32,000 nt of DNA from an uncultured archaeon (GTDB lineage Archaea; Asgardarchaeota; Thorarchaeia; Thorarchaeales; Thorarchaeaceae): contig CAZYLT010000014.1 in NCBI GenBank assembly GCA_964648855.1, positions 2,400-34,399 of the forward strand, given 5' to 3'. Below the pieces are notes generated by a model. The model made no database searches, was not told the origin of the DNA, and saw only the letters and a list, made by a program, of their open reading frames with translations. A program made the position numbers and the translations under genes. Positions 2,360 through 28,787 of the stretch are shown one piece after another; position 1 is the stretch's first letter; each line of letters starts with the position of its first letter.

Positions 2360-2373
2360 AATTTTTCATCTCC

Positions 2374-11400: not shown

Positions 11401-11404
11401 GACA

Positions 11405-12841: not shown

Positions 12842-12879
12842 GCAGAACACACTAGATTAGTTCCGTTGTACTGCTTGGA

Positions 12880-13815: not shown

Positions 13816-13962
13816 GTTCCTTAGACTCCAAGGGTGTGACGGCACAGATGAAGGATGTATTAAAGCGATTCATTTGAACATCATTCCAATGGATTTTCAC
13901 GAATCGAAGTATTGATATACGGTTGTTCGAATCTCAAGCACAGACGAAAGAGGTTTTCAACT

Positions 13963-14382
13963 TTGAGTGACGATGAGTTGGCGGAGATTAGACGTCGTAA
14001 AATTGAACGACTCAAACAGATGGCTGCAGAACCTGCGGTCAAAGAGCCACTAGCAAATGGTAGTGTCAACTTATTGACAGATGCAAATTTCTGGAACACC
14101 ATTCAGAAGACAAAGACCGCAGTAGTTGACTTCTTTGGCACATGGTGCAATCCATGCAAGGCATTAGCACCCATATTTCAACAATTGGCACAGGACTACA
14201 AAGGAGACGTATTTTTCGCCAAGATTGATATTGATCGCAATCCTCGTATCACTGCACAGTTTGGGGTTCAGTCAGTCCCCATGGTGGTAGTATTCAAAAA
14301 CGGGAAACCTGCGGGCGATCTTCCTGGGCTCCGAAGGTATGCAGACTACGATATGGTAATTCAACAATTGCTAGAGACTTAG
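13963..14382 (+). CDS. trxA: Thioredoxin with archaeal-type N-terminal helix
   Basis: VDFFGTWCNPCK, FGVQSVP. Likely TTG start giving MSDDELAEIRRRKIERL. Confidence 0.9.
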   Translation: MSDDELAEIRRRKIERLKQMAAEPAVKEPLANGSVNLLTDANFWNTIQKTKTAVVDFFGTWCNPCKALAPIFQQLAQDYKGDVFFAKIDIDRNPRITAQFGVQSVPMVVVFKNGKPAGDLPGLRRYADYDMVIQQLLET

Positions 14383-14426: not shown

Positions 14427-15068
14427 TCACTTCGTCAAAATAGACGCGATTTTGACGGCATCTTGGGCATCTTTGGCGTATCCATCTGCTTCTATAGAAT
14501 CCGCGAAGTCTTGAGTGATTGGACCGCCTCCAACCATGGTCTTTACTGGGATATTTCTTTTACGAATATCTTCGATTACCTTCTTCATTGAGTCCATGGA
14601 CGTAGTCATCAGTGCAGAAATCGCAACTATATCAGCTTCTTCCTTCAGAGCAACGTCACCGAAATTGCTCAGGGGAACATCTTCTCCTAGATTTATGACA
14701 TCGAAGCCTGCGGCGCCAAGCATAGATGCGACAAGATTTTTTCCAAGGGAATGGATATCTCCCTGGCATGTTCCGATAACAATAGTACCCTTGGCCTCAA
14801 TATCAGTATCCTTTAACTTGGGTTTAATAACGGTCATCGCAGCCTCGAACGCCCTTGCTGACATCAGCATTTCTGGTATGAAATACTCTCCATTTTGATA
14901 GAGATCTCCAACCTCTGACATGGCCTTGCTGCAGCCATCTATAACAATCTTGAAGGGCGGAATTTCTGAGTCTAACGCCCTTTCTGCTTCTCTGGCAGCT
15001 TCCTCTCGATTTCCCTCTACTATTGCTTCAATTAATGATTGCATGTTTGTTTTTGATGCCATTGTCAT
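14427..15068 (-). CDS. Methyltransferase cognate corrinoid protein (MtaC/MttC-like)
   Basis: Cap domain (GEYFIPEML), B12-binding DIHSLGKNLV, SALMTTSM, MVGGGP. Confidence 0.93.
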   Translation of the reverse strand: MTMASKTNMQSLIEAIVEGNREEAAREAERALDSEIPPFKIVIDGCSKAMSEVGDLYQNGEYFIPEMLMSARAFEAAMTVIKPKLKDTDIEAKGTIVIGTCQGDIHSLGKNLVASMLGAAGFDVINLGEDVPLSNFGDVALKEEADIVAISALMTTSMDSMKKVIEDIRKRNIPVKTMVGGGPITQDFADSIEADGYAKDAQDAVKIASILTK

Positions 15069-15169
15069 AATCCCTCTAGATGCGCACCTTTATCAAGTAT
15101 TCATTCACTGACGCTATTAAATCCAAGTTAAACCAATAATAAAGTGCTCGGTCTGGTAGGGAGAATCTA

Positions 15170-16180
15170 ATGACATCAACAGGATTGGAATTGATACGCA
15201 AAACACTTACACATCATGAACCAGAACGAGTTCCGATATTGCCTCTGGTTGGGCTGTTTGCTTCAAGAATTGCAAATGTACCAATCTCTGAAATGTTGCA
15301 TAATCCTGCCAAACAAAGCCAAGCCCTGTTGGAGGCTAGAGAGAAGTTTGGATATGACGGAGTCTTCAATGTCATGGATTTGACACTGGAGGCTGAAGCA
15401 TTAGGAGCAGAGGTAGTATTCGACAAGGGTGGATTTCCATATGTTAAGAAACACCCCTTGGATTCATTTGATGATTTGAATGCCTTAGAATTGCCTCCAA
15501 TTTCCAGTACAAGATTACAGGTTTTTGTGGAAAGTAGCAAGGAGCTGTTTCTTGAGATTGGCGATACGCAACTTGTCAGTAGCTACATAATTGGGCCATT
15601 CACTCTAGCTGGACATTTGTTTGGGATAGAGAAACTTCTAACTGCAACATTTGAAAATCCGGATGAAGTAGACGAGGCTATTGAGAATTGTGCTAGGATT
15701 TTGACGCCTTACCTGAGAGAGCTCCTTGACACAGGCTCACATAATATCGTGATCTTGGAACCCAGTGCAAGCAATAGCATCATTTCACCGGCATACTTTG
15801 AGAGATTTTCGGCACCACACATAGAACGTATGAATGGTATAATACATTCCGAAGACGCGTATGCAACTCTACATATCTGTGGAGATACTAACAGAATGAT
15901 GCGAGCAATGACTGATACAAATGCTGATGCCCTGAGTATTGATTCTGCAGTTGACTTACAAGCGGCGAAGAAAATTGTTGAAACGAAATCAACGCTCATT
16001 GGTAGTGTTGATACCACTCTTCTTCTGAAGGGCAGCATAGAGCAGGTGCGAAAAGCCGCGCTAACATGTATCAAAGATGCTGCGAAAGGCGGTGGATATA
16101 TACTGAGCAGTGGATGCGACTTTGCTATAGAAACACCCACGGATAATCTGTCCTCACTCGTTGAAACCGTATTTATCTAG
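15170..16180 (+). CDS. MtaA/CmuA-family (UroD superfamily) corrinoid methyltransferase
   Basis: EAEALGA, GPFTLA, EPSASNSIISP, Zn ligands LHICG...SSGCD. Confidence 0.85.
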   Translation: MTSTGLELIRKTLTHHEPERVPILPLVGLFASRIANVPISEMLHNPAKQSQALLEAREKFGYDGVFNVMDLTLEAEALGAEVVFDKGGFPYVKKHPLDSFDDLNALELPPISSTRLQVFVESSKELFLEIGDTQLVSSYIIGPFTLAGHLFGIEKLLTATFENPDEVDEAIENCARILTPYLRELLDTGSHNIVILEPSASNSIISPAYFERFSAPHIERMNGIIHSEDAYATLHICGDTNRMMRAMTDTNADALSIDSAVDLQAAKKIVETKSTLIGSVDTTLLLKGSIEQVRKAALTCIKDAAKGGGYILSSGCDFAIETPTDNLSSLVETVFI

Positions 16181-16229
16181 ATGAAAGATTTGGTGTCACG
16201 ATTGTTTGGTGATTGGGAGAGAGATATTA

Positions 16230-17855
16230 TTGGTTGATACGGAACTCATTCTGGAGCCTTCGGGTTTGAGAATAGTTGTTGACACTAATGAGACGATTAT
16301 GGATGCAATTCGAGCAGCTGGTCAATATTTGCCCTCTGATTGTGCAGGACGTGGAACCTGTGGGAAATGCAAAGTCGTGGTAAACCCCATACCTGAACCT
16401 AGCGCTTCGGACTTGGAGCTGCTCAGTATCTCCGACATAAGAGATGGTACGCGTCTAGCGTGTCAACACAAAGTTGGGACTGCCAAAAGAGTAGGGATTC
16501 CTAGTCAATCTATCAGTGCGCAGATTCTCACGGATTCGCTGATGTCTGAGCGTGTTGAAGCTGATCTCGGTGATACAAATGATATTGGTGTAGCCATAGA
16601 CATAGGAACAACAACTATTGTGTGCTATTTCATGAATATGGGTACAGGAATTCAGCTGGGTCAAAAGAGCGCAATTAACCCGCAAATTGTGCATGGTGAG
16701 GATGTCATGAGCCGTCTTACCTATGCGATTGAGAATCCAGAAGGGTCCACTGAACTTCAAGAACAAATTTGGTCAAAGGTAGAAGAGCTCGTTGATTCAT
16801 TTCTCGATGAAAGAGATATTGACCCTCGAAGCATCATAGCTGGGTCCGCTGTTGGCAACACAGCCATGCAATACTTAGCTCTAGGATATGATGTTCAGTC
16901 ACTAGCCATGGCACCCTATATTCCACATAAGAAAGAATCAACATTGGTCAGAGGTACTGAAATCGGATTGAGTCGGTTCTTCAATGTATCAATATACTTC
17001 TCGCCTGTTGTTGCGGGCTTTGTCGGTGGTGATGCGCTAGCCTTTATGTTATCTCGACGAATGGAGGGTTCTTCGGGCATTTCCATGGGCATCGATATAG
17101 GCACAAATGGAGAGATGTTGCTTTCAAAGCATGGAGAGATATTCTGCTGTTCAGCGGCAGCCGGTCCGGCTTTTGAAGGAGCAAGAATAAAAGATGGAAT
17201 GCGAGCGCAAAAAGGAGCTATAGAATATGCGAATATAAGAGATATTCAAAGCACTCCTGACATCGGTGTCATCGGAAATGTGCCACCTGAGGGCATATGC
17301 GGGTCCGGAGTTCTAGATATTGTGGCAGAACTGCGCAAGATAGGTCAAATTGATGAAACAGGGCGCATTCTTGAAGGACCAAGAGTGGATGATGTCAGCA
17401 AACACGGACGCATATATAGAGTCGTGAAGCTGGGCGAAGGGAACGCTAAGAGGGAAATCATTCTCACCCAGAAAGATGTACGACAAGTTCAGTTGGCAAA
17501 GGCCGCAATCAGAGCAGGAACTGAAATCCTCCTTTCCAAGGCTAGTTTGAATTCATCCGATATTGATACCCTGTTCTTAGCAGGTGCATTTGGAAATTAC
17601 ATGAGACCTGAAAGTGCACTCAATATTGGTTTACTACCACCAGTAAGCTCGGATAAGGTAATCCCGGTGGGAAATGCTGCTGGTGCGGGTGCAAAAAGAA
17701 TCTTGGTATCCTCAAGTGAAAGACAGCGAATAGAAATGGTAGCACAAGAAGCACATTATGTGGAATTGGCAAATGCTGACGGATTCAATTCTCTATTTGC
17801 GAGTTGTACACGTTTGACGTCTGAGATTGTTGACCTGGAGCTCAAGAGAAAATGA
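16230..17855 (+). CDS. ATP-dependent reductive activator of corrinoid proteins (RamA/RACo-like; 2Fe-2S + ASKHA)
   Basis: CAGRGTCGKC...RLAC ferredoxin domain, DIGTTT, GEDVMSR, DIGTNGE, AGPAFEG, GICGSG, LAGAFG, GNAA. Start approximate (ORF opens at 16206). Confidence 0.92.
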   Translation: MVDTELILEPSGLRIVVDTNETIMDAIRAAGQYLPSDCAGRGTCGKCKVVVNPIPEPSASDLELLSISDIRDGTRLACQHKVGTAKRVGIPSQSISAQILTDSLMSERVEADLGDTNDIGVAIDIGTTTIVCYFMNMGTGIQLGQKSAINPQIVHGEDVMSRLTYAIENPEGSTELQEQIWSKVEELVDSFLDERDIDPRSIIAGSAVGNTAMQYLALGYDVQSLAMAPYIPHKKESTLVRGTEIGLSRFFNVSIYFSPVVAGFVGGDALAFMLSRRMEGSSGISMGIDIGTNGEMLLSKHGEIFCCSAAAGPAFEGARIKDGMRAQKGAIEYANIRDIQSTPDIGVIGNVPPEGICGSGVLDIVAELRKIGQIDETGRILEGPRVDDVSKHGRIYRVVKLGEGNAKREIILTQKDVRQVQLAKAAIRAGTEILLSKASLNSSDIDTLFLAGAFGNYMRPESALNIGLLPPVSSDKVIPVGNAAGAGAKRILVSSSERQRIEMVAQEAHYVELANADGFNSLFASCTRLTSEIVDLELKRK

Positions 17856-17904: not shown

Positions 17905-18555
17905 TCACTTCTTGTGTTCCGCTATAACAGATAGAAATGCTTCCACATTCTCGGTTATCTTGCCGAAATCTCCAGCTGCAATGGCCTTTTTGTCCGTGAT
18001 AGAACTTCCAACACCCAATGCAAAGGCACCCGCATCCAATAGTGGTCCAGCTGTATCTATATTAACCCCGCCAGTCGGAATAACAGGAACTTGTGGAAGT
18101 GGTGCTTTTACTGCCTTGATATAAGAGGCACCTCCCAGATTCCCGCATGGGAATACCTTTACGGCATCTGCTCCCATGGTATACGCTTCAAGAATCTCCG
18201 TTGGCGTAACGGCGCCTGGAAAGACCGGCTTTGAGTATCTTCGAGTAGTTTCTATCAAATCCCTCGAATATATGGGACTAACAATGAACTCACTTCCAGC
18301 GAGAATAGCTTGTCGGGCAGTTGCACCATCTAGGACTGTCCCGGTTCCGATCAGCACCTTATCTCCCAATTTTTCAGACAATTCCTTGACAACATCTACT
18401 GCACCAGGAACACTGAATGTCACTTCAATTATTGAAACTCCTCCATCCAAGAATGCGTCAGCTACTCTTAGGGCGGTCTCACTAGAGTCTACTCTGATGA
18501 TAGGAATCAGGGCGGTCTTTTCTATCAAATTCATAGCTTCATGCTTATTCCACAC
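17905..18555 (-). CDS. eda: KDPG/KHG aldolase (bacterial-type class I)
   Basis: IPIIR, IEVT, GTGTV, FIVSP, TPTEI, VKVFP (Schiff-base Lys), PTGGV. Confidence 0.93.
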   Translation of the reverse strand: MWNKHEAMNLIEKTALIPIIRVDSSETALRVADAFLDGGVSIIEVTFSVPGAVDVVKELSEKLGDKVLIGTGTVLDGATARQAILAGSEFIVSPIYSRDLIETTRRYSKPVFPGAVTPTEILEAYTMGADAVKVFPCGNLGGASYIKAVKAPLPQVPVIPTGGVNIDTAGPLLDAGAFALGVGSSITDKKAIAAGDFGKITENVEAFLSVIAEHKK

Positions 18556-18567
18556 GTCTAACCACCT

Positions 18568-19563
18568 CTACCTCTGGATTCTAAGCCCTCTCTCATAGCC
18601 TTCAACGAGTTTCTCGATTTCTTCTTTATTCACGAAAGCAAGGTCGCCTGGTATTGTTTGCTTGAAGGCTGAGAATGCTGAGCCAAAGTTAACCGCTTGT
18701 TGCAAGTCTTCGAGTTCCAAATATCCATAAATGAAACCGGCACTGCAAGAGTCGCCGCCGCCAAGACGATCTATGACTTCTATATCGTATGTCGGACTGC
18801 GATAGACGTTTCCATCCGCGTAAGCAAAGACGGACCATTTATTCTCAAGAACGGATGGCGTTTCACGAAGTGTGATTAGTACTACTTCGAAACCAAACTT
18901 GTCCGTCAATTTTGACGCTACTTCCTCATAGTTCTCGCCTTCGATTCCGTAAACGACTTTGGTGTCCTCTTCAGTGGTAATGAGGATGTCAATATATTCT
19001 GATGCAGGTTCAGTAAATTTCCTTGCCTCTTTTGGAGTCCAGAGCTTGCCTCTATAATTGACATCGTAAGACACCTTGACACCGTGTTTTCTGGCTGCTT
19101 TGAAAACCTCCATGGTTGTATCTGCACAGCCGTTACTGAGGGCAGGAGTTATTCCGCTTGTATGGAACAACCGTGTTCCATCTAGGAAATCATCCCAGGG
19201 TACCTCTCCTGGTTTAATTTTGCTAATTGCTGAATGAGCCCTATCATAGATGACTCGATTTGTCCGAGGTGCCGCACCAAACTCAACGAAGTAAACTCCA
19301 CATCGACTATCCGGGTCCCAAAGGATGTGAGAGGTATCCACATCATGCATTCTTGCCTGATTTCTGATGAAATGGCCGATTGAATTATCACCAAGCTTTG
19401 TAACATATGCAGAATTCAATCCTAGTCGGGAACATGCGACTGCAACGTTCATCTCAGCTCCTCCTGCATTAGCATCATAGCTATGTGTCTGCTCAAACCG
19501 TCTGAAATCGGGGGGAGATAGCCTTAGCATGACTTCTCCGAAGGTAACTACATCAAAATTCAT
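18568..19563 (-). CDS. kdgK: 2-keto-3-deoxygluconate kinase (PfkB family)
   Basis: FGEVMLRLSPP, GGAEMNVA, YDRAHSA, SGITPAL, DVNYRGKLW, DRLGGGDS; directly upstream of eda. Confidence 0.9.
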   Translation of the reverse strand: MNFDVVTFGEVMLRLSPPDFRRFEQTHSYDANAGGAEMNVAVACSRLGLNSAYVTKLGDNSIGHFIRNQARMHDVDTSHILWDPDSRCGVYFVEFGAAPRTNRVIYDRAHSAISKIKPGEVPWDDFLDGTRLFHTSGITPALSNGCADTTMEVFKAARKHGVKVSYDVNYRGKLWTPKEARKFTEPASEYIDILITTEEDTKVVYGIEGENYEEVASKLTDKFGFEVVLITLRETPSVLENKWSVFAYADGNVYRSPTYDIEVIDRLGGGDSCSAGFIYGYLELEDLQQAVNFGSAFSAFKQTIPGDLAFVNKEEIEKLVEGYERGLRIQR

Positions 19564-19586
19564 CTTTCACACTCACATTTTCTCTC

Positions 19587-19607
19587 TTGAATTTAAGTTG
19601 AATTTAA
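19587..19607. promoter_or_regulatory. 10-bp direct repeat TTGAATTTAA-G-TTGAATTTAA upstream of kdgK, possible operator
   Basis: Exact repeat with 11-bp period in the GRE-kdgK intergenic region. Confidence 0.35.
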
Positions 19608-19651
19608 TATTGGAGCACTGAATGTTAAACCTGTCGTAAGCCCCATATTGG

Positions 19652-21997
19652 TTAGTGAGCAGAAGAAAACTCAGTTCTCGCGATTATTTCATCCTGCACG
19701 AAGGGATCTAGTTCAATGAAATATGCACTATATCCCGCCACTCGAACAATGAGATTGCGATGCTGAAGGGGGTGTACCTTCGCATCCTCCAAAGTGGCCC
19801 TATCTACAACATTGAATTGGACATGTAATCCATTCATCTTGAAATACCCTTCAACGAGTCCGATGAATTTTTCTCTTGACTTTTTGCTGCTAAACATATC
19901 TGGAGTGAATTTCATATTATACAGGGTTCCATTATAGCAGCGCTGATGATCCAACCGAGCAACCGATTTCATTGCAGCAGTGGGTCCATTAACATCTCGA
20001 TTCTGAGTTGGTGATACACCATCCGAAAGCATGATGCCGGCCTTTCTCCCATCTGGGGTGGCTCCTAAGACCTCACCTTGAGGAATATACATTGAAACCG
20101 AGAATAGCGCCCCATGATATGACCCGTCACGCGTTGTCATACGACTTTGGATTGCATCACAGAATGCGACACCTGTATCTCGTGCTAGAAAATCTACTCT
20201 TTCAATATCATTTCCATACTTGCATGGGTCATTTTCAAGAAGAATTCTTAGTTCTTCGTAGCCCTCATAATCTGCATGCAATGCCTCTAACAGATTATCC
20301 ATCGTTGTCGTTTTCTGCTCAAAAACGTGCTTTCTAATCATCTCAAGCGAATCAGCAACTATTGCGACCCCAACCCCCATAATGCCGCCGGAGTTATATA
20401 GCGCTCCACCATCCTGCATAGTCCTACCGCTTTCAAGGCAGCCCTCTAGTAGAGACGAAATGAATGGGGTCGGCTTGTTTTGAGAGAGGATTCCTGCCGC
20501 AACTCGGTCCGCCTGTGTGAGCAATTCAATAGTATAATCGATTTGCTCTTCGTAGGCATCCCATAGCTGCTCAAAGGATGTAAATTCTGTGACATTACCA
20601 GTTTCCAATCCTACTTTCTCGCCGCTAATTGGATCAATTCCATTATTGAGAGTTATCTCTAATATTTTTGGTAGATTGACATAGCCAATATTCGGTCTTG
20701 GATCCGACTTCCCAGCCATTATTGGCTCCACGCAACCGAGGATTGAGTAATCATGTGCCTCTGAAGGATCCGTTCCCTTGTCGGTCATCAGGGGAATTAT
20801 GACTTCATCATTGAATATTCCTGGCATGCCCAAGCCCTTAGATACAACCTCGACAACCTCCCTCATGAACCTGTCAGGAGTACCCTCATGCCATCTGAAC
20901 GAAACTGTAGGTTGCGTGACTCGAATATTCTTGGTTGCCTCCAAAACCAGACTGGTCAAATCATTGCAGGCATTATTGCCATCAGCATCTTGTCCCCCAA
21001 TTGTCAAATTCTGAAACATGGGATGTCCCGCAAAAGCGACGCTGTAGTACTCGTTTCTTAGTTTGATTAGTGAAGTGAACTTGATCCATAGCATTTCAAG
21101 AAGCTCGAGGGCTTGGTCTCTGGTGAGTTTGCCTGACCTCATATCTTGCTGAAAATATGGAAACATGTATTGGTCAAAACGGCCCGTGGATATAGAATGA
21201 CCGTTTGACTCCGTCTGTACAAGCAGATGAATAAACCAGAACGACTGAAGTGCCTCATGAAATGATTCTGCAGGATATTCTGGAACCCTTGCGCATATGC
21301 GTGAGATTTCCTCCAGATCTGCTTTTCTTTGTAGGTCTGATTCTGCATCTGCAAGACTTGCCGCAAGTTTGGAGAATCTCTTTGCGAATGCAGTTACCGC
21401 CTCCAACTGAGTAATCACTGCTTCATAGAATTTCCTCTCCTCCTCAGAGGTAGAATCCTGAAACTTATCTTTTGTATCAGATATAATGCTCGCTATTCCT
21501 TTCCCAAGTACTGTAGGATAATCCACAATAACATGGCCGATCCCAGTCCCTGGTGCACCTATTGTGAACAAACCCGCCTTGGACGCTCTCTGAGAATCCA
21601 TTGGCATTTTGCTCCGGGCTATTTCCGCAGTACTCTTTCCATTCCAGTATTCGAAGACTTCTCTGAGAATATCTTTATCATCTTCTCCTATCTGAAATGG
21701 TTCTGTTCTACGCGCATCGAACCTATCCAGCTCCTCGTTGAGCCATTCCCAGCTATACTCTGGGAATATCTGACAAGAACGAGGTGTTGGGCCCATGTTC
21801 CCCACAATCAATTCCTCTGGCTCTATCCGAATAGTCATGTCTTCGAGAACCTTAGCAAACGCATTAGCCAATCGAATCTTAATAGGTTCCGACTCATGAG
21901 ACCTCAAGTAATCGGTGAAAATGGATGCTCGTTCGCTTGAGATGGTGGGTTCTGCAGCAAGCATTCTGTCTTTGATTCGTTGCGTTCTAGAGGTCAT
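19652..21997 (-). CDS. Glycyl radical enzyme, diol dehydratase/PFL2-like eliminase class, substrate unknown
   Basis: Gly loop RVAGYSAYF, Cys loop ILGCVEP (single Cys, not the PFL CC pair), GHVIVDY, ESNGHSISTGRFDQY, ATPDGR; 781 aa. Confidence 0.93.
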   Translation of the reverse strand: MTSRTQRIKDRMLAAEPTISSERASIFTDYLRSHESEPIKIRLANAFAKVLEDMTIRIEPEELIVGNMGPTPRSCQIFPEYSWEWLNEELDRFDARRTEPFQIGEDDKDILREVFEYWNGKSTAEIARSKMPMDSQRASKAGLFTIGAPGTGIGHVIVDYPTVLGKGIASIISDTKDKFQDSTSEEERKFYEAVITQLEAVTAFAKRFSKLAASLADAESDLQRKADLEEISRICARVPEYPAESFHEALQSFWFIHLLVQTESNGHSISTGRFDQYMFPYFQQDMRSGKLTRDQALELLEMLWIKFTSLIKLRNEYYSVAFAGHPMFQNLTIGGQDADGNNACNDLTSLVLEATKNIRVTQPTVSFRWHEGTPDRFMREVVEVVSKGLGMPGIFNDEVIIPLMTDKGTDPSEAHDYSILGCVEPIMAGKSDPRPNIGYVNLPKILEITLNNGIDPISGEKVGLETGNVTEFTSFEQLWDAYEEQIDYTIELLTQADRVAAGILSQNKPTPFISSLLEGCLESGRTMQDGGALYNSGGIMGVGVAIVADSLEMIRKHVFEQKTTTMDNLLEALHADYEGYEELRILLENDPCKYGNDIERVDFLARDTGVAFCDAIQSRMTTRDGSYHGALFSVSMYIPQGEVLGATPDGRKAGIMLSDGVSPTQNRDVNGPTAAMKSVARLDHQRCYNGTLYNMKFTPDMFSSKKSREKFIGLVEGYFKMNGLHVQFNVVDRATLEDAKVHPLQHRNLIVRVAGYSAYFIELDPFVQDEIIARTEFSSAH

Positions 21998-22039
21998 CTT
22001 GATGTATTACACCTCATTCTAGATTATTTTTTGCATCCA

Positions 22040-23209
22040 TCACTTTGGTCTTCTTAGTAGCTTTGGAAGGAAGGTGTCAAGCCTTTGGAGTGCCTCTTCA
22101 ATGCTCTCAGTTGACATTGCATAACATAATCTAAGGAATCCTTCACCAAAGTGTCCGAATGCAGACCCATGAACAGTAGCAACATTTACCTCATTGAGGA
22201 TTCTCATAACCAATTCGAAGGTTTCCATGCCAAATGCAGAAACATCTGGAAATACATAAAACGCTCCACCTGGCGGTTCCAAATCAACTCCCTCGATTTG
22301 CTGTAAACCCTTGACCATAATATCTCGTCGTTCTCTGAAGGTATCCAGCATCTCCTTGACGCAATCTTGCGGGCCCTCGACAGCTTCAGCCGCTGCTTTT
22401 TGCGAGATGGAGGTCGGCATTGCAATCACATGTTCTTGCAGTTTTGTCATTGCACCAATTACCTCAGACGGCCCGGTACAGATACTAATTCGCCATCCGG
22501 TCATAGCATATGTCTTAGACAGCGAGAACAGAGATACTACTCGTTCTTTCATTCCGGGCAATGAGCCGATGAACAGCGGTTTCTCATTATCATAGCGGAA
22601 TTTTTCGTAGGCCTCGTCTGAGAGAATGTAGAAATCCTTCTCGATTGCAAGTTCTGCGATTTTCTTGAGTTCTTCATTGGAGATAACTCCGCCTGTTGGA
22701 TTGTTTGGGGAGTTCAAGACCAACATCTTGGTCCTATCTGTGACCAACTTCCTAACTCCCTCAGCAGTCACCCCAAAACCATGTTCCTTCTTGAGTTGTA
22801 GTGGAATCGCTTTTCCTTCTGCCAATTTCACATGGGCAAAATGGCTGACGAATCCAGGATCTGGATATATTACTTCATCACCAGGTTCAACAAGAACAAG
22901 GTTTGCAAGCACAAGTGCACCCATGCCGCCAGCGGTCGCCATAATCTCGCTAACGGGGTCAGCGTCAATGTCATTATCTCGCTTTAGCTTCCTGGCGAAT
23001 GATTCTCTTACGTCCATGAAACCTGCATTGTGGGTGTATTTGGTAAAACCATCATCGATTGCCTGCTTTGCTGCTTCTTTGATGTGATTTGGAGTATCGA
23101 AATCCGGGATTCCAACTGTCAGGTCAATAACGTCATCTCGTCCTAGAATCATGTTGTAGATTTTTCTTATCTCACTGGCTGGAACAAACTGGTTTCTTTC
23201 GGCGAGCAT
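22040..23209 (-). CDS. PLP-dependent aminotransferase class I/II (AspAT-like)
   Basis: GIPDF, NSPNNPTG, SDEAY, SLSKTYAMTGWR, GAFY, LRLCYA. Confidence 0.94.
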   Translation of the reverse strand: MLAERNQFVPASEIRKIYNMILGRDDVIDLTVGIPDFDTPNHIKEAAKQAIDDGFTKYTHNAGFMDVRESFARKLKRDNDIDADPVSEIMATAGGMGALVLANLVLVEPGDEVIYPDPGFVSHFAHVKLAEGKAIPLQLKKEHGFGVTAEGVRKLVTDRTKMLVLNSPNNPTGGVISNEELKKIAELAIEKDFYILSDEAYEKFRYDNEKPLFIGSLPGMKERVVSLFSLSKTYAMTGWRISICTGPSEVIGAMTKLQEHVIAMPTSISQKAAAEAVEGPQDCVKEMLDTFRERRDIMVKGLQQIEGVDLEPPGGAFYVFPDVSAFGMETFELVMRILNEVNVATVHGSAFGHFGEGFLRLCYAMSTESIEEALQRLDTFLPKLLRRPK

Positions 23210-23344
23210 TATAATGCACCACTGATGTTTTGAAGTTTAATCTGCAATTTATATCCTTTTAAACAACCAAAGAATACTTTAACTTCTAACACATCCCGAT
23301 TCTAAATGAATTTAAGAAAGCATGTTCGTTGAATGGTGAATACT

Positions 23345-23815
23345 ATGACCGAACCATCAGCAGATGAAGTAAGAAAGGTGAATATGGCAACATTGGCTAG
23401 CGCTCATGCAGTCTATGTTGAGGCAATGAGAGACCATTGTGGAAAAGAAGGTTTGGAGGCACTAAGAAAAGCAAATCTACAACACGGACTTGAATTGGGT
23501 GAGGCTGGTATTGAGAGTGGTGGGTTAAGAAAAGGAGAACCGAAATCACTTTTTGACTTTTTTGAGGCAGCACATCCTTATTTTGGATTTGATTTGGAGC
23601 TGATAGATTATAGTGACGATATGGTTGAGATGAGGGTTCAATCCTGTCCTTGGATTGACACATTCAAAGCAGAAGGCGCACAAGAAGACATCTGTCATTG
23701 GGTATGTGCTATGGATGACGGGATAGGTCAGGCAGTTGACCCAGATTTGAGATTGTCAATTCCCAAATGCATGATGCGTGGCGATGACTATTGTGTTTAT
23801 CTCTGGAAGAAATGA
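23345..23815 (+). CDS. L-2-amino-thiazoline-4-carboxylate hydrolase-like / V4R-fold Cys-rich protein
   Basis: VQSCPW...ICHWVCAMD...KCMMRGDDYC. GGTGA RBS before ATG 23345. Confidence 0.72.
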   Translation: MTEPSADEVRKVNMATLASAHAVYVEAMRDHCGKEGLEALRKANLQHGLELGEAGIESGGLRKGEPKSLFDFFEAAHPYFGFDLELIDYSDDMVEMRVQSCPWIDTFKAEGAQEDICHWVCAMDDGIGQAVDPDLRLSIPKCMMRGDDYCVYLWKK

Positions 23816-23825
23816 GTGATTGACC

Positions 23826-24491
23826 ATGGTAAACAAAGATTTGATAATAGACAGAACACTGAAACTCTATGTGGCTGCGGTATCAGATGCAGCTGACGAA
23901 GCTGGGCTAAGCCCGGTCTGTATGGATTGGGAAATAAAGCCCGTAACGAACAACTATCGCATGGCAGGCTTTGCAAGAACTGGCAAACTTGTTCGTACAC
24001 CTCCAAATAGGCCGTATGACGAGGGGCAGCTGGACTTATTCATGAGCTTGGCTACAAAGGCGGAGCAATGGGACATTGTATGCATTACCTCAAGTGGTGC
24101 AACAGATTGTTCAGTCTGGGGTCAGGTGCTAACTAGAATTGGCATCCCAAAGGGGCTTAATGGAGCAGTTGTAGACGGAACCTCAAGAGATATCGAGGAT
24201 ATCAACAACATGAATTTTCCAGTATTTGCTCGTGGGCGTCACCCAGGAACTATGAGAGGTCGTTTGGATATGGAGTCTGTTGGCGAACCAATTACTTGTG
24301 GTGGCGTGAAAGTTGCGATGGGTGACTTGATTTTTGCTGATGGTGACGGAGTTGTCGTTATTGCAAAAGACCGAATCGAAGAGGTTCTCGCAGCAGCAGA
24401 AGAGGTTGTTTCCACTGATGTATGGTGGGCGGACAAGCTGGATGAGGGTGAAGACCCTCATGAGATGCATAAAGAGAAGCCAATCCCCTAA
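23826..24491 (+). CDS. RraA family protein / HMG-CHA aldolase-like
   Basis: VSDAAD, SVWGQVL, GAVVDGTSRD, FPVFARG, GDLIFADGDGVVVI. Confidence 0.88.
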   Translation: MVNKDLIIDRTLKLYVAAVSDAADEAGLSPVCMDWEIKPVTNNYRMAGFARTGKLVRTPPNRPYDEGQLDLFMSLATKAEQWDIVCITSSGATDCSVWGQVLTRIGIPKGLNGAVVDGTSRDIEDINNMNFPVFARGRHPGTMRGRLDMESVGEPITCGGVKVAMGDLIFADGDGVVVIAKDRIEEVLAAAEEVVSTDVWWADKLDEGEDPHEMHKEKPIP

Positions 24492-25615
24492 CTAATGGGA
24501 TACTGCCCTTTCTCTGCCGCATAGTCATACATTTCAAGTATCTTCTCCGGAGTCGAGTCAGGCTGTATATTATGAGCGGGCGCCAGAATGTATCCACCGC
24601 CGGGTGCAAATGCTCTCAATCTAGTATCGATCTCCTTTCTTAGGTCATCAATCTTCCCAACCGAGGCCATAGCCTGCTGCAAATCAATTCCTCCATGAAA
24701 GGTTAATCTGTCGCCGTATTTCTGCTTGAGAGTTTCTGAGTCCATACCTTCTGCCAAGGGCTGCACCGGGTTAAGAATATCAACTTCTACATCAATCAAA
24801 TCTTCTATCATGGGCTCAATGGCTCCACAACTGTGATACAAAATCTTGACGTGAGGGGCTCTCCTGTGGATATCTGAGTAGATTTTCTTATGTTTCGGTT
24901 TGATCTTGTCGCGATACATCTTGGGACTCATTATCAGTCCGTTCTGATGACCTAGGTCATCGCCCACCTGCACGATATCGAGATAATCCCCAACTGCATC
25001 GAGAAAAACGGCATTCATGTCTAGAGCAAGCTCCATTGACTTGTTCATCATGGCTTCAGCCAATTCTGGACGAGATATTAGGTCTATGAGAAACTTGTCA
25101 AACCCTCTCATGTAGTGAGCGCAGACTTCGAATACGCCCCATGGACCTCCCACCATTCCTGTGACCGCATAGTCTGTTTCTTCATGAAGATATTTCGCCC
25201 ATTCTACTACACCATCTAATCTTGAAGGGTCTTGAGGATCAAGCCACTCATAGTCCTCTACTTCTTGCACCTCGGTGAAATCAGCCCACGGAAAGTGGAC
25301 TATCTCCCAATACTCACCAATCCATTTCCCCCTGCATCCGAATTCGGTTTCAACGCTTCCATCTGGGTATTCCTTTGGCTTGAAGTCAGCAGCAGATTTC
25401 ATGTATACTCTCCGAAAGTCAATACTGAGTCTTTGTAGCATTTCTTCAGAGATTTGCCAGACACTCATTATACCCCATTCTTGGGTTTCCGGGGCATCAA
25501 TCCCCAAGTAGTCCCTAAGACTTTCATATGCCTGCGGAGTAATCCACAGGTCAAGTGGTACTCTGTCGGGTTCTTCGTGGGACACAGCCTTATGGAATCG
25601 CTCTCTTGGTTTCAT
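24488..25615 (-). CDS. Uroporphyrinogen decarboxylase superfamily protein (putative corrinoid methyltransferase)
   Basis: HEEPDRVP, MRGFDKFL, GDDLGHQNG, YHSCG, NPVQP, GGGYILAPAHNIQ. Confidence 0.85.
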   Translation of the reverse strand: MKPRERFHKAVSHEEPDRVPLDLWITPQAYESLRDYLGIDAPETQEWGIMSVWQISEEMLQRLSIDFRRVYMKSAADFKPKEYPDGSVETEFGCRGKWIGEYWEIVHFPWADFTEVQEVEDYEWLDPQDPSRLDGVVEWAKYLHEETDYAVTGMVGGPWGVFEVCAHYMRGFDKFLIDLISRPELAEAMMNKSMELALDMNAVFLDAVGDYLDIVQVGDDLGHQNGLIMSPKMYRDKIKPKHKKIYSDIHRRAPHVKILYHSCGAIEPMIEDLIDVEVDILNPVQPLAEGMDSETLKQKYGDRLTFHGGIDLQQAMASVGKIDDLRKEIDTRLRAFAPGGGYILAPAHNIQPDSTPEKILEMYDYAAEKGQYPIS

Positions 25616-26084: not shown

Positions 26085-26214
26085 GCGAAAACCACAGAGA
26101 ATCGCCGCTTCCCATATTAAGCTTGTATTAAAGAAACTTCGCGACCAGAGAGCTTAATTAGCATTTATTATACTCTTGAATTCAGAACCAAAGAATCTGG
26201 AGCAGCGGTTGACA

Positions 26215-27594
26215 ATGGATATCCAAAAAATGACAAGTCGTCTTGAAGACATTGTTGGGTCAAAGCGAGTCACTGACAAGGAATTCGATATCGTGGCATA
26301 TAGTCGTGATTTAAGCCCTGCAAAACAGAAGATGGCTACTCATATAGTGATGCCTGAAACAAAAGAAGAGATTCAAGAGATTCTCAGGATTGCTAACAAA
26401 CATGATATCCCGATTTATCTACGGGGTGGTGGAACCTCACATTGGGATGCGTTTCTTCCTCAAGACCCGGGTATCATGCTTGATTTAGCGCTGATGAATC
26501 GGATAATAGAAATCGAGGAAAGAGACCTTACTGTCACCGTTCAGCCAAATTGCACTTGGGCAAAACTGGATGCCGCGCTTCAGGAAAAGGGGCTAACTTA
26601 TCTTTGCAGTGAAGCTGGAGGTCCCGCTATGACCGTTGGTGGGTCGGTGATGAAGGCTGGCGGAGGGCCACGTGGCACTGCCAAGTTTGGTTTCCACGGA
26701 CATCGTGATATCGTCACGCTTGAGATGGTTCTTCCCAATGGAGATGTAGTACATACGGGCTCTGCGGCGTGGCCAAGTGCAGGGAAGTTCAAGAGACAGT
26801 GTCTAGGTCCAGACCTTGCTGGCATGTTCATTGGAGCAGAGGGTATTCTCGGGGTTTGCACAGAGTTAACACTCCGAATTAGACCATCTTCAGATTATGA
26901 AGAGCGCATCATGGCAGTCATTCCAACACTTGATGAAGCAATTGAATTAGGGCATTTTGTCAATCGGCTAGTTGGAGATGAATACCTGCAGGGCTTCTAT
27001 TTATGGGTTGAACCAACAGACCCTGACACGTTTATTGTGATGGCAGATATTTTCGCGTATGAAAAGAAGATAATGGAGTTTCGAAAGAAGAAACTCATAG
27101 AGAAAATCGAGGACCTGGGAGGGAAAATTGGCGACCCGGCTCCTGCAAATGACTATTTCGATAGAATTCTCACAGGACTAACAGACATCTTTGCAACTGG
27201 AGTTTGGCATTTCTTTGGCTCCGGCTCTTGCAGAATTGACGATATTGGCTTTCTGTACAAGGTATGGAAGGAAGAGCTAATTGAAAAGAGAGGCTATACA
27301 AAGGCTGGATTTGGGGGTCAGGTCCTCCCAAGAGACTGGTTGGCTTTTATGGTCACTAACTACCAAGAGCCAGAGGAATGGGACCAACTCGTCGAGATGG
27401 CTGATGAAATCAACGAGATGATTCTCAATGGGCCTGTTGTCCCTTATGGAATTGGCGGAAGAGATGGCCTAAGATCGTTCGTGGCTGAGCGAGATACAGG
27501 ATACTACCGTCTCCTGAAGACTCTGAAAAGAACACTTGATCCCAAGAATATTCTACAGCGTGGGATTTTCATTGCAGAGGAGGAATTAGAATGA
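26215..27594 (+). CDS. FAD-binding oxidoreductase (GlcD/D-lactate dehydrogenase-like, VAO/PCMH family)
   Basis: RGGGTS, MNRIIEI, TVGG, LEMVLPNG, FIGAEGILGVCTE, LDPKNIL. Start at ATG 26215 (ORF opens at 26176). Confidence 0.88.
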   Translation: MDIQKMTSRLEDIVGSKRVTDKEFDIVAYSRDLSPAKQKMATHIVMPETKEEIQEILRIANKHDIPIYLRGGGTSHWDAFLPQDPGIMLDLALMNRIIEIEERDLTVTVQPNCTWAKLDAALQEKGLTYLCSEAGGPAMTVGGSVMKAGGGPRGTAKFGFHGHRDIVTLEMVLPNGDVVHTGSAAWPSAGKFKRQCLGPDLAGMFIGAEGILGVCTELTLRIRPSSDYEERIMAVIPTLDEAIELGHFVNRLVGDEYLQGFYLWVEPTDPDTFIVMADIFAYEKKIMEFRKKKLIEKIEDLGGKIGDPAPANDYFDRILTGLTDIFATGVWHFFGSGSCRIDDIGFLYKVWKEELIEKRGYTKAGFGGQVLPRDWLAFMVTNYQEPEEWDQLVEMADEINEMILNGPVVPYGIGGRDGLRSFVAERDTGYYRLLKTLKRTLDPKNILQRGIFIAEEELE

Positions 27595-28787
27595 ATATCA
27601 GCGACTACAAGGACATGATTTACGCCTGTGGTAGATGTGAGTTTTGTCGTGGATATGATTTCGACGAGCGATGTCCCGAAATCTACACTCAAACTTGGGA
27701 ATCATCAACTGCTAGAGGGAGGATGGCAATAGCCAGAGCCATACTAGAGGGTAAATTGGACTACACTGAAGACCTTGCTGAGCGAATATTTGGCTGCTTT
27801 ATGTGTGGTAGATGCAAATACGAGTGCAAGAAGGCCGCCCAGATAGACATCATCGCAGTGACGAAGGCCATGAGGAAGGACTTTGTTGAACAGGGAGTCG
27901 CTATTCCTGAAGGCGGCGAAAATATGGCTGATACTGCTCAAGAAACAGGGAACATCTTTGCGGACACACCAACTGTACATACCCAATGGGCGGAAGGACT
28001 TGAGTTCACCGAAGGTTCAGGAACCCTCTTTTATCCTGGCTGCTTAGCCAGTCACCGCTTTAAGGAAAAGACCAACATCCTTGTCCGTGTGCTCCAAGAG
28101 GCGGGCTATGAGCTTGACTTTCTTGGCGAAGACCAGCGATGTTGTGGCACACCGTACTGGATAACTGGGAAGATGGAGCACGCAAAAGAATGGGCAGAGG
28201 ATTACCTGAACAATCTACAGGAACGTGGTGTTGAAACAATCATTACTCCGTGCCCCAGTTGCTTCCGAGCATTCGATGAGATCTATCCAGAATTGTTGGG
28301 AATGGATGAGTTTCCAATAAAAGTTCGTCACACAAGCGAGGTTCTGGCAGAGATTGTGAGAGAAGGCAAACTGGACCTGAAGAAACCAGTCGATGTTGTC
28401 GTTACCTATCACGACCCCTGCGAGATTGGACGTTATCGAGATATCTATGAACCCCCCCGGGAAGTCATTGAGGCAATCCCCGGTGTTGATTTCCGTGAGA
28501 TGCCGCGCAATAGAGAACAGGCATTTTGTTGTGGCGGTGGCGGCGGAGTCAAGATAATGTATGAGGATAACTCGCAGATGGCTGCTAGAAGACGTTTAGA
28601 AGATATCGAAACCACAGAGGCTACGATTATTGCGACAGTCTGTCCAGCATGTGAGATGAATCTCACCCATGCAGTGTACGAGGCAGATGCTGAGATGCGG
28701 GTGCTTGACATTGCTGAACTCATGGCTGTATCAGCCGGAATCGTTGATGAGGAGATTCTGGATCCCTACTACATTCCTGAGGATTGA
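27591..28787 (+). CDS. Fe-S oxidoreductase, GlcF/HdrD-like (two [4Fe-4S] motifs + two CCG domains)
   Basis: CGRCEFC...CP, CFMCGRCKYEC, YPGC, CCG, CPSC, HDPC, CCGGGGG, CPAC. ATGA overlap with the upstream gene. Confidence 0.92.
   Translation: MNISDYKDMIYACGRCEFCRGYDFDERCPEIYTQTWESSTARGRMAIARAILEGKLDYTEDLAERIFGCFMCGRCKYECKKAAQIDIIAVTKAMRKDFVEQGVAIPEGGENMADTAQETGNIFADTPTVHTQWAEGLEFTEGSGTLFYPGCLASHRFKEKTNILVRVLQEAGYELDFLGEDQRCCGTPYWITGKMEHAKEWAEDYLNNLQERGVETIITPCPSCFRAFDEIYPELLGMDEFPIKVRHTSEVLAEIVREGKLDLKKPVDVVVTYHDPCEIGRYRDIYEPPREVIEAIPGVDFREMPRNREQAFCCGGGGGVKIMYEDNSQMAARRRLEDIETTEATIIATVCPACEMNLTHAVYEADAEMRVLDIAELMAVSAGIVDEEILDPYYIPED

What the first reader, a model, noticed from the sequence alone, without database searches (positions are those of the whole stretch)
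17905..23209. Candidate new pathway: glycyl radical enzyme in the dehydratase slot of an Entner-Doudoroff-type operon
Seen: aminotransferase > GRE > kdgK > eda on one strand with gaps of 42, 88 and 12 bp, and no enolase-family or IlvD/Edd aldonate dehydratase in the window. Known: KdgK and Eda consume 2-keto-3-deoxy-aldonates; GRE eliminases abstract H from a carbinol carbon and expel the vicinal group, giving a keto/deoxy product; E. coli YbiW/PflD do related chemistry on anhydro-sugar phosphates upstream of aldolases. Inference: C2 H-abstraction with C3 elimination on a sugar acid gives exactly KDG, so this may be a radical aldonate dehydratase or C-O/C-N lyase. The aminotransferase hints at an amino-sugar-acid or hydroxy-amino-acid substrate. 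I know of no characterised GRE with this role.
Basis: partly seen in the sequence, partly recalled or inferred. Interest (0 to 1): 0.88.

Follow-up and report, generated by a model that had tools for sequence, protein, structure and literature searches.

The report
Asgard radical enzyme feeding KDG pathway
A Thorarchaeota (Asgard archaeon) gene cluster puts a lineage-specific, uncharacterised glycyl radical enzyme directly before a genuine sugar-acid kinase and aldolase. It probably makes their 2-keto-3-deoxy substrate by radical chemistry, an activity not yet described, but the real substrate is still unknown.

Summary
On the minus strand lie an aminotransferase, a GRE, KdgK and Eda, with gaps of 42, 88 and 12 nt. 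The 95%-complete genome has no conventional KDG-forming dehydratase. The organism is a Thorarchaeon from a microbial mat.

- **The GRE.** It is a CXE-type 1,2-eliminase, closest to B12-independent glycerol and propanediol dehydratases (692 and 683 bits). It reaches no curated equivalog. It keeps the Cys/Glu/His catalytic set but has a rebuilt substrate hairpin (GD W445/H446/D447 become R434/P435/N436).
- **Its range.** Orthologs (67% identity or more) occur only in one GTDB family. The next relatives among 1.84 billion representatives are 42-43% identical.
- **New here.** The unit is about nine genes. It also holds an ATC-hydrolase-like protein, an RraA-like protein, a divergent URO-D protein and a GlcD-like FAD dehydrogenase with a CCG iron-sulfur subunit.
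- **Losses.** The GRE, KdgK and URO-D genes are lost or decay together. The aminotransferase survives alone in four genomes, so it is a weak clue to the substrate.
- **Activation.** The single activase lies elsewhere in the genome and must act in trans.

Best reading (about 0.45): a radical eliminase that makes KDG from an aldonate or a C3-substituted aldonate. This scan found the same operon earlier in other Thorarchaeota genomes.

The parts
19652..21997 (-). Glycyl radical enzyme (GRE1), 781 aa. It is a CXE-type 1,2-eliminase with Cys422, Glu424, His155, ESNGHS 263-268 and the glycyl motif RVAGYSAYF. Its hairpin is clade-specific: D432-P-R434-P-N436-I-G-Y439.
18568..19563 (-). 2-keto-3-deoxygluconate kinase (PfkB family), 331 aa.
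   Evidence: The best solved relative is T. maritima KDG kinase 2afb (281 bits). The Y-x-R, N-x-R and GxGD segments align with KDG kinases of T. thermophilus and S. solfataricus. NCBIfam KDG/KDGal kinase scores 314 bits, below the 440 cut-off.
17905..18555 (-). KDPG/KHG aldolase (Eda), 216 aa.
   Evidence: TIGR01182 scores 185 against a 156 cut-off. The best natural solved relative is T. maritima KDPG aldolase 1wa3/1vlw. The VKVFP lysine motif and the PTGGV and GVGSS phosphate motifs are kept.
22040..23209 (-). Class I aminotransferase, 389 aa. It is co-oriented with the GRE 42 nt upstream of it.
   Evidence: The best solved relatives are P. horikoshii aromatic and aspartate aminotransferases (318 bits). 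Its ortholog is kept in G317, G326, G329 and G330 without GRE or KdgK. In G315 it is intact beside a decayed KdgK.
23333..23815 (+). ATC_hydrolase-family protein, 160 aa, Cys-rich, divergently transcribed from the aminotransferase.
   Evidence: PF14196, 62 bits. No solved relative by sequence. It holds the same position in g8, g9, g10, g12 and g15.
23820..24491 (+). RraA-like protein, 223 aa (the family of class II pyruvate aldolases and oxaloacetate decarboxylases).
   Evidence: PF03737, 103 bits. Hits to CHA aldolase/OAA decarboxylase 3noj. Conserved in the cluster except in G324, where a metallo-beta-lactamase-fold gene takes its place.
24488..25615 (-). Divergent URO-D-family protein (UROD2), 375 aa, with HSCG 261-264 and APAH 345-348 motifs.
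   Evidence: PF01208, 109 bits. Its phyletic pattern follows the GRE: 62 of 86 genomes, absent in G315 and a pseudogene in G379. Relatives lie next to a corrinoid protein (54% identical) or inside a bacterial Man-PTS amino-sugar operon (42% identical).
26176..27594 (+). GlcD-like FAD-binding dehydrogenase subunit, 472 aa. Only the FAD-binding half resembles GlcD.
   Evidence: Conserved next to UROD2 in g9, g10, g12 and g15.
27591..28787 (+). 4Fe-4S / CCG-domain subunit, 398 aa (GlcF, TfrB, LdhH type).
14427..17855 (.). Context only: corrinoid protein (14427-15068, -), MtaA-like methyltransferase (15170-16180, +) and RACo-type reductive activase (16206-17855, +). Of the six more distant family genomes whose flanks I annotated, none has these genes next to the cluster.
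   Evidence: The sister species of the same genus (G386) was not checked.

Best explanation
GRE1 is an oxygen-sensitive radical 1,2-eliminase that supplies the 2-keto-3-deoxy-hexonate used by the adjacent KDG kinase and KDPG aldolase.

**Proposed mechanism (inferred).**
1. The glycyl radical is installed in trans by the genome's only GRE activase, on another contig.
2. The radical passes to Cys422.
3. The thiyl radical abstracts H from the C2 carbinol of a sugar acid.
4. Glu424 deprotonates the C2-OH.
5. His155 protonates the group on C3 (OH, or a substituent such as O-methyl), which leaves.
6. The alpha-keto radical takes H back from Cys422, giving KDG or KDGal.
7. KdgK phosphorylates C6.
8. 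Eda cleaves the product to pyruvate and glyceraldehyde-3-phosphate.

The invariant Arg434 and the new polar residues (Asn436, Tyr439, His628, Tyr637) would hold the carboxylate and the polyol tail.

Five co-inherited genes probably prepare or trim the real substrate. They are the GlcD-like/CCG dehydrogenase, UROD2, the RraA-like protein and the ATC-hydrolase-like protein. One example would be oxidation of a sugar to its acid.

**What is shown and what is not.** The gene identities, the motifs, the synteny, the co-loss and the absence of conventional dehydratases are shown. The substrate, the product, the regiochemistry and the roles of the five extra genes are inferred.
For: **Operon anatomy.** Gaps of 42, 88 and 12 nt on one strand.

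**KdgK and Eda are genuine.**
- Their nearest natural solved relatives are the T. maritima KDG kinase and KDPG aldolase.
- The kinase segments Y-x-R, N-x-R and GxGD and the aldolase lysine and phosphate motifs are kept.

**No other KDG source in the genome.** It has no UxuA, UxaA, UxaC, UxuB/UxaB or SGL lactonase. MR_MLE_C gives only one weak match in an enolase-sized frame. The only IlvD is the branched-chain dihydroxy-acid dehydratase equivalog.

**The GRE keeps the eliminase apparatus.**
- CXE, the GD His164 equivalent, ESNGHS and the glycyl motif are present.
- The review assigns the Glu and His the deprotonation and protonation roles in GD (PMC13450708).
- The pocket is rebuilt and invariant in 120 orthologs: R434, N436, Y439, H628, Y637.

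**Not a known enzyme.**
- All equivalog scores are about half their cut-offs.
- The family collapses to one 50% cluster, and the next hit is 42-43% identical.
- It sits on a long stem of 0.56-0.63 substitutions per site.

**Phyletic pattern in the family (86 genomes).**
- GRE orthologs are in 59, KdgK in 61 and UROD2 in 62. Most mismatches are fragmented or incomplete assemblies.
- In G315 the GRE (3 stops, on contig C15) and KdgK (2 stops, on contig C6) have decayed at separate loci, while the neighbouring aminotransferase is intact.
- In G379, GRE and KdgK are gone and UROD2 is a pseudogene.

**Activation.** There is one activase per genome. In G389, GRE1 is the only GRE candidate, and in G389 and G387 the activase is not next to any GRE.
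Against: - No biochemical or expression data exist.
- Orthologs are confined to one GTDB family, so conserved synteny and co-deletion of adjacent genes are largely non-independent.
- No route to an aldonate is evident in the genome. There is no lactonase and no glucose dehydrogenase equivalog.
- No dedicated sugar-acid transporter sits in the cluster.
- The nearest GRE clades by tree have amino-acid-type neighbourhoods.
- Five co-inherited genes have no role in a simple aldonate to KDG scheme.
- Archaeal dihydroxy-acid dehydratases are known (from memory) to act on gluconate in Sulfolobus, so IlvD is not excluded as a KDG source.
- I could not inspect a three-dimensional pocket or dock any substrate.
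Confidence: 0.45

Rival explanations
1. GRE1 acts on an amino acid-like or amino-sugar-acid substrate, for example a hydroxylated or cyclic amino acid, or glucosaminate or a 3-O-substituted derivative. The carboxylate would be bound by Arg434. The product would enter KdgK/Eda only after further steps, with the aminotransferase, UROD2 and the ATC-hydrolase-like protein handling nitrogen or substituents.
For: - The nearest clade (P0121, P0125, P0146, P0159) shares the hairpin D-x-R.
- That clade lies in neighbourhoods with proline-dehydrogenase-like genes, an SSF transporter, an AA_kinase, saccharopine dehydrogenase, an M20 peptidase and two P5C reductases.
- A class I aminotransferase is co-transcribed upstream, and an APC-type permease lies nearby.
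- A 42%-identical UROD2 relative sits in a bacterial sigma54/Man-PTS/NagB-like amino-sugar operon.
Against: - The sister grouping is only moderately supported: 95 by FastTree but 86 SH-aLRT by IQ-TREE.
- GRE1 keeps the GD/PD-type ESNGHS segment. By my numbering estimate, which I did not test by alignment, the essential amine-handling Asp278 of HypD (PMC7077986) would fall in this segment. GRE1 has no Asp there.
- The aminotransferase persists without the rest of the module.
- KdgK and Eda keep sugar-acid and phosphate motifs.
Confidence: 0.22
2. GRE1 is a diol-type dehydratase for a small molecule not on the KDG route, such as glycerol, 1,2-propanediol or another vicinal diol or polyol. Its position beside kdgK-eda would then be inherited synteny without a direct metabolic link.
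For: - Its highest similarity is to glycerol and propanediol dehydratases (692 and 683 bits).
- It has PD-like residues at GD Tyr339 (Phe) and Ser642 (Val).
- Orthologs are limited to one family, so the synteny may simply be vertical.
Against: - The GWHD hairpin seen in GD, PD and 9rco is replaced by PRPN/PRQN in all orthologs. Tyr640 is also lost.
- The GRE and KdgK decayed at separate loci in G315.
- There are no microcompartment or aldehyde-handling genes beside it.
Confidence: 0.2
3. GRE1 is an alkyl- or benzylsuccinate synthase for anaerobic hydrocarbon activation, as Thorarchaeota and Hermodarchaeota GREs have been annotated in databases and in Zhang et al. 2021 (PMC8163825).
For: - One homolog (72% identical) is named 'Benzylsuccinate synthase alpha subunit' in NCBI.
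- The paper bases its assignment on a single active-site Cys and 29-33% identity to AssA/BssA.
Against: - Similarity to solved succinate synthases is far lower (TutD 301 bits, MasD 294 bits) than to GD (692 bits).
- The CXE motif and the His of dehydrating eliminases are present.
- A single Cys is common to all non-PFL GREs.
- The neighbourhood holds sugar-acid genes, not beta-oxidation or small-subunit genes.
Confidence: 0.02
4. GRE1 is a 2-oxoacid formate-lyase that works with the aminotransferase in amino acid fermentation.
For: The aminotransferase lies directly upstream.
Against: - It has a single Cys in GCVEP, not the Cys-Cys pair of PFL.
- TIGR01255 scores 163 bits against a 994 cut-off.
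- PFL structures score only about 150 bits.
Confidence: 0.02

Closest known systems
B12-independent glycerol dehydratase (C. butyricum DhaB1, PDB 1R8W/1R9D) and 1,2-propanediol dehydratase (R. inulinivorans, PDB 5I2A)
   Same: - Full-length GRE fold.
- CXE Cys loop, the His164 equivalent, ESNGHS and the glycyl motif.
- The highest sequence scores (692 and 683 bits).
- Hence probably the same ketyl-radical elimination mechanism.
   Different: - The substrate hairpin GWHD is replaced by PRPN/PRQN (Asp447 becomes Asn, Trp445 becomes Arg).
- Tyr640 becomes Phe and Asn645 becomes Tyr (in GD, also Tyr339 becomes Phe and Gln636 becomes His).
- There is no adjacent activase.
- It is archaeal.
- Its neighbours are KdgK/Eda rather than aldehyde-handling or microcompartment genes.
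E. coli YbiW and PflD (1,5-anhydrohexitol-6-phosphate C-O cleaving GRE isomerases upstream of an aldolase; PMC13450708)
   Same: A GRE turns a sugar derivative into a keto-deoxy compound, which a downstream aldolase cleaves.
   Different: - Only 483-514 bits.
- The NCBIfam PflD-type model scores 589 against a cut-off of 1109.
- Those substrates are anhydro-sugar phosphates imported by a PTS.
- The aldolase there is of the transaldolase/FSA type, not Eda.
Semi-phosphorylative Entner-Doudoroff pathway of archaea and the Thermotoga KdgK/KdgA module
   Same: KDG kinase plus KDPG aldolase, with conserved substrate motifs. The T. maritima enzymes are the nearest natural solved relatives.
   Different: The conventional dehydratase (enolase superfamily, IlvD/Edd, UxuA or UxaA) is missing from the cluster. 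Apart from the branched-chain IlvD, it is missing from the genome too. A GRE stands in its place.
Salmonella dga operon (D-glucosaminate PTS, ammonia-lyase DgaE, KDPG aldolase DgaF); recalled from memory
   Same: An amino-sugar-acid route that ends in an Eda-type aldolase. A UROD2 relative sits in a similar sigma54/Man-PTS operon.
   Different: There is no PTS, no PLP ammonia-lyase and no sigma54 system here. The link is a lead only.

Membership tests
Glycyl radical enzyme superfamily | PFL-like barrel plus a C-terminal glycine-radical domain with the RVxG motif | tested here: met
   PF02901 715 bits and PF01228 114 bits. RVAGYSAYF is invariant across the compared relatives.
Glycyl radical enzyme superfamily | A radical-SAM activating enzyme is available | tested here: met
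   One TIGR02494 match above its cut-off (307 bits) lies on contig C3, next to a second GRE and not in the window. The five relatives checked have one activase each. Action in trans is inferred.
GRE 1,2-eliminases / isomerases | [quoted passage not shown] | tested here: met
   G421-C-V-E-P425 is invariant in 120 orthologs. The definition of the motif comes from PMC13450708.
Glycerol / propanediol dehydratase (GD/PD) | His164 equivalent and the ESNGHS segment | tested here: met
   His155 and E263-S268 are invariant.
Glycerol / propanediol dehydratase (GD/PD) | Hairpin G-W-H-D (GD Asp447), seen in the GD, PD and 9rco alignments | tested here: not met
   It is replaced by P-R-P/Q-N in all orthologs. 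The catalytic role of Asp447 is recalled from memory, not from a paper I could read.
Glycerol / propanediol dehydratase (GD/PD) | Sequence-level orthology | tested here: inconclusive
   692 and 683 bits to the solved enzymes. However, it sits on a separate long-branch clade, and the nearest 50%-cluster representatives are 42-43% identical. None of the NCBIfam models that matched is a GD or PD equivalog.
HypD, CutC, HpfG, HpsG, PflD-type | NCBIfam equivalog cut-off | tested here: not met
   Scores against cut-offs: 616/1100, 599/1050, 598/1000, 581/1000, 589/1109.
Pyruvate / 2-oxoacid formate-lyase | Adjacent Cys-Cys pair; TIGR01255 | tested here: not met
   Single Cys. 163 bits against a 994 cut-off.
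X-succinate synthases | Closest similarity to BSS/ASS alpha subunits; small subunits | tested here: not met
   TutD scores 301 bits and MasD 294 bits, against 692 for GD. I did not search specifically for small subunits. None of the neighbouring genes carries such a domain.
KDG kinase (PfkB) | PfkB fold with the KDG-binding Tyr/Arg residues and the catalytic GxGD | tested here: met
   Aligned with 2afb, 1v19 and 2v78. The Y-x-R, N-x-R and GGGD segments are conserved. The residue roles are recalled from the T. thermophilus and S. solfataricus structures.
KDG kinase (PfkB) | NCBIfam equivalog cut-off | tested here: not met
   The best score is 314 bits against 440 (NF041332).
KDPG/KHG aldolase (Eda) | TIGR01182 cut-off; Schiff-base Lys and phosphate-binding motifs | tested here: met
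   185 bits against 156. VKVFP, PTGGV and GVGSS align with T. maritima KDPG aldolase.

The most novel reading that the evidence does not exclude
Thorarchaeota run a 'radical Entner-Doudoroff' entry. A glycyl radical enzyme replaces the metal-dependent aldonate dehydratase. It expels the C3 substituent of a sugar acid (hydroxyl, or a natural O-methyl, amino or ether substituent) to give KDG. It works inside a nine-gene module whose FAD/FeS dehydrogenase makes the sugar acid anaerobically. This would be the first functionally assigned archaeal GRE and a new substrate class (sugar acids) for the superfamily.
Probability: 0.35. Interest if true: 0.85.

Novelty: new variant of a known kind. Interest (0 to 1): 0.7.

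Why it matters
- The June 2026 review of the field (PMC13450708) lists no GRE acting on sugar acids.
- It also states that no archaeal PFL-like GRE has a characterised function.
- This clade offers a concrete assay: KdgK and Eda can serve as built-in coupling enzymes.
- It would add a new reaction class to anaerobic sugar-acid catabolism.
- It bears on what Asgard archaea eat in mats and sediments.
- It also corrects a published and database annotation of such Asgard GREs as alkyl- or benzylsuccinate synthases. That annotation has been used to argue for hydrocarbon degradation by Asgard archaea.

Tried and rejected
- **RNA evidence.** No RNA holder was listed. The only holders were four DNA runs of one microbial-mat study, probably the source of the window. 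I did not lay reads.
- **Papers on the GD and CutC active sites.** LaMattina 2016 and Bodea 2016 are not held. A search for Asp447 found only the review, which does not mention it. Statements about Asp447, Tyr339 and Tyr640 therefore rest on memory.
- **Solved-structure searches.** ATC-hydrolase-like: nothing. UROD2: one weak hit to 4ay7. RraA-like: only family-level hits.
- **Atlas look-ups.** For UROD2 and the ATC-hydrolase-like protein these returned only their own Pfam families.
- **Literature search** for a GRE with 2-keto-3-deoxy acids, or with kinase, aldolase and aminotransferase: only sulfoquinovose papers.
- **In-frame stops** flagged in many g12 orthologs. Some orthologs are called as 770-aa forms that begin about 11 residues later. 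I suspect the stops lie upstream of that start and are not pseudogene marks. I did not check positions gene by gene.
- **Corrinoid genes as part of the module.** Rejected as a general feature. They are absent next to the cluster in g8, g9, g10, g12 and g15.
- **Structure prediction, fold search and complex prediction** were not run. No tool returns coordinates or docks sugar acids, so they could not decide the substrate.


Full report
**Observation.** The four genes lie on the minus strand at 22040-23209, 19652-21997, 18568-19563 and 17905-18555, with spacers of 42, 88 and 12 nt.
- Pfam and NCBIfam identify a class I aminotransferase, a full-length glycyl radical enzyme (PFL-like 715 bits, Gly_radical 114 bits, TIGR01774 above its cut-off), a PfkB kinase whose best models are KDG kinases, and an Eda aldolase above the TIGR01182 cut-off.
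- No aldonate dehydratase lies in the window.
- The window is contig C14 of a 3.1-Mb, 94.6%-complete genome. Protein hits and earlier notes of this scan place it in Thorarchaeota. The DNA occurs in microbial-mat metagenomes.

**The GRE.**
- Its best solved relatives are C. butyricum glycerol dehydratase (692 bits), R. inulinivorans propanediol dehydratase (683 bits) and an unnamed GRE, 9rco (654 bits). CutC, PflD, HypD, YbiW, HplG and IslA follow. The succinate synthases (about 300 bits) and PFL (about 150 bits) are far behind.
- Every curated equivalog score is about half its cut-off.
- The alignment to GD shows the catalytic set intact: Cys422 and Glu424 (CXE), His155 (GD His164), ESNGHS and the glycyl motif.
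- The hairpin after the Cys loop reads GKSDPRPNIGYVN, where GD has GKTEGWHDSAFFN and PD and 9rco also have GWHD.
- Across 120 orthologs, D432, R434, N436, Y439, H628, F632, S633, M636, Y637 and Q640 are invariant and differ from GD/PD-like sequences.
- The June 2026 review assigns Glu435 and His164 of GD the deprotonation and leaving-group protonation roles. It lists all characterised eliminases and isomerases: GD, PD, HpfG, HypD, HpyG, HpzG, CutC, IslA, IseG, HpsG, HplG, YbiW and PflD. None acts on a sugar acid, and it notes that no archaeal PFL-like GRE has a known function (PMC13450708).

**Distribution.**
- Among 1.84 billion 50%-identity representatives, the whole family is one cluster (representative 73% identical). 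The next hits are 42-43% identical.
- In 400 Asgard genomes, orthologs (67% identity or more) occur only in the window's own GTDB family. All other Asgard GREs are at most 41% identical.
- In trees the clade sits on a long stem. Its nearest neighbours are four uncharacterised bacterial-type representatives (P0121, P0125, P0146, P0159). Support is 95 by FastTree but only 86 SH-aLRT by IQ-TREE, where a CutC-like sequence joins the group.
- Three of the four share the hairpin D-x-R. None is a known equivalog.
- The three whose contigs I fetched (P0121, P0125, P0146) have amino-acid-type neighbourhoods.
- Another representative with a PRCN hairpin (P0124) sits in a sugar ABC transporter / FGGY kinase / AFOR locus.

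**Kinase and aldolase.**
- The kinase's best solved relative is T. maritima KDG kinase. The segments that bind KDG in the T. thermophilus and S. solfataricus enzymes (Y-x-R, N-x-R, GxGD; roles recalled from memory) are conserved.
- The aldolase's best natural solved relative is T. maritima KDPG aldolase. The lysine motif and both phosphate-binding motifs are kept.
- These two are therefore a genuine KDG to KDPG to pyruvate + GAP module.

**Other KDG sources.**
- The genome has no UxuA, UxaA, UxaC, UxuB/UxaB or SGL lactonase. MR_MLE_C gives one weak match in a 438-aa frame, read as enolase. The one IlvD scores as dihydroxy-acid dehydratase.
- Its three medium-chain dehydrogenases are threonine-dehydrogenase/IolM-like, not glucose dehydrogenase equivalogs.

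**The module is larger than reported.**
- In genera g1, g8, g9, g10, g12 and g15 the arrangement is Eda-KdgK-GRE-aminotransferase, then divergently ATC-hydrolase-like and RraA-like, then UROD2 on the opposite strand. G324 of g8 has a metallo-beta-lactamase-fold gene in place of RraA-like. GlcD-like and CCG follow UROD2 in g1, g9, g10, g12 and g15; the stretch fetched for g8 ends before that point.
- Some genomes add a second GlcD/CCG pair, an SCP2 protein and a Zn-dependent alcohol dehydrogenase.
- In g15 a PAS histidine kinase is inserted between the GRE and KdgK.
- The corrinoid protein, MtaA-like methyltransferase and RACo activase abut Eda in this window. They are absent next to the cluster in the six more distant family genomes I annotated.

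**Phyletic pattern in the family (86 genomes).**
- GRE orthologs are in 59, KdgK in 61 and UROD2 in 62. Most mismatches are fragmented or incomplete assemblies.
- Because the genes are adjacent, co-deletion alone says little. Three cases are more informative:
  - **G315.** The GRE (three stops, four ORF pieces) lies on one contig. KdgK (two stops) lies on another, beside an intact aminotransferase. UROD2 is absent.
  - **G379.** GRE and KdgK are gone and UROD2 carries four stops.
  - **G329.** The aminotransferase is kept between unrelated genes and the window's own left-flank genes. Both the GRE-KdgK-Eda side and the ATC-hydrolase-to-CCG side are gone.
- The aminotransferase ortholog also survives alone in G317, G326 and G330. 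It therefore has a role of its own and is a weak clue to the GRE substrate.

**Activation.**
- The window has no radical-SAM gene. The genome has one GRE activase, on contig C3, directly after a second GRE (35% identical, GCLEN loop).
- Each of five relatives checked also has exactly one activase. In G389, GRE1 is the only GRE candidate, and in G389 and G387 the activase has no GRE beside it. The activase must therefore serve GRE1 in trans there.

**UROD2.**
- It keeps an HSCG motif and an APAH motif in place of the third Cys of MtaA-type enzymes.
- A 54%-identical relative lies directly before a corrinoid protein. A 42%-identical relative lies in a bacterial sigma54/mannose-PTS/NagB-like operon without any corrinoid gene.
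- Its chemistry (methyl transfer or something else) is open.

**Interpretation.**
- The best-supported reading is that GRE1 makes the KdgK substrate by radical elimination at C2/C3 of a sugar acid.
- In favour: the retained Glu/His ketyl-radical apparatus, a new invariant Arg and polar pocket, genuine KdgK/Eda partners, no conventional dehydratase, and parallel decay.
- Unexplained: where the sugar acid comes from, what five co-inherited genes do, and why the nearest GRE clades look amino-acid-related. I put this reading at about 0.45.
- A variant in which the substrate is an amino acid or amino-sugar acid gets about 0.22. A small-diol dehydratase with only inherited synteny gets about 0.2.
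- The published or database annotation as alkyl-/benzylsuccinate synthase (PMC8163825; NCBI name) and a formate-lyase role are not supported by the sequence.

**Relation to earlier notes of this scan.** The same operon was reported and followed up in other Thorarchaeota genomes with similar conclusions. New here are:
- the restriction of orthologs to one GTDB family;
- the nine-gene extent of the module;
- the independent persistence of the aminotransferase;
- the co-behaviour of UROD2;
- the argument for activation in trans from g15;
- the neighbourhoods of the nearest GRE clades.

Noticed in passing
window 14427-17855: A corrinoid protein (MtgC-like), an MtaA/MtbA-like methyltransferase and a RACo/RamA-type reductive activase lie directly beside Eda. 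They are absent next to the cluster in the six more distant family genomes I annotated.
   Followed up: partly
window 10567-14382: A syntenic block of two Cys-rich (zinc-ribbon/B-box-like) multi-pass membrane proteins (277 and 481 aa, no Pfam family), an EamA transporter and a thioredoxin. It is conserved at 57-66% identity in G328 and G329.
   Followed up: partly
G000 contig C3 9317-15233 (L022): A second GRE (809 aa, GCLEN Cys loop, below the TIGR01774 cut-off) is followed by the genome's only activase and a PNPOx-like protein. It is preceded by a 522-aa protein with no Pfam family. Its function is unknown, and it is conserved at about 80% identity in G329 and G363.
   Followed up: partly
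L057 10772-14215 (G389 contig C12): An 1147-aa histidine kinase rich in PAS domains is inserted between the GRE and KdgK in genus g15. It is a possible dedicated sensor for the pathway's substrate.
   Followed up: no
L077 9001-10146 and L075 4680-6464: The UROD2 subfamily (HSCG ... APAH motifs) occurs in two very different settings. One is a bacterial sigma54/mannose-PTS/NagB-like operon. The other is directly before a corrinoid protein. This URO-D subfamily has no assigned function.
   Followed up: partly
L024 4362-12885: A bacterial locus with two GREs, two activases, a ribose-type ABC transporter, an FGGY kinase, an aldehyde:ferredoxin oxidoreductase and a cupin-type phosphoglucose isomerase. 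It looks like another uncharacterised GRE sugar or polyol pathway.
   Followed up: no
window 1982-2781: A DsrE-family protein lies next to a DUF5400 protein.
   Followed up: no
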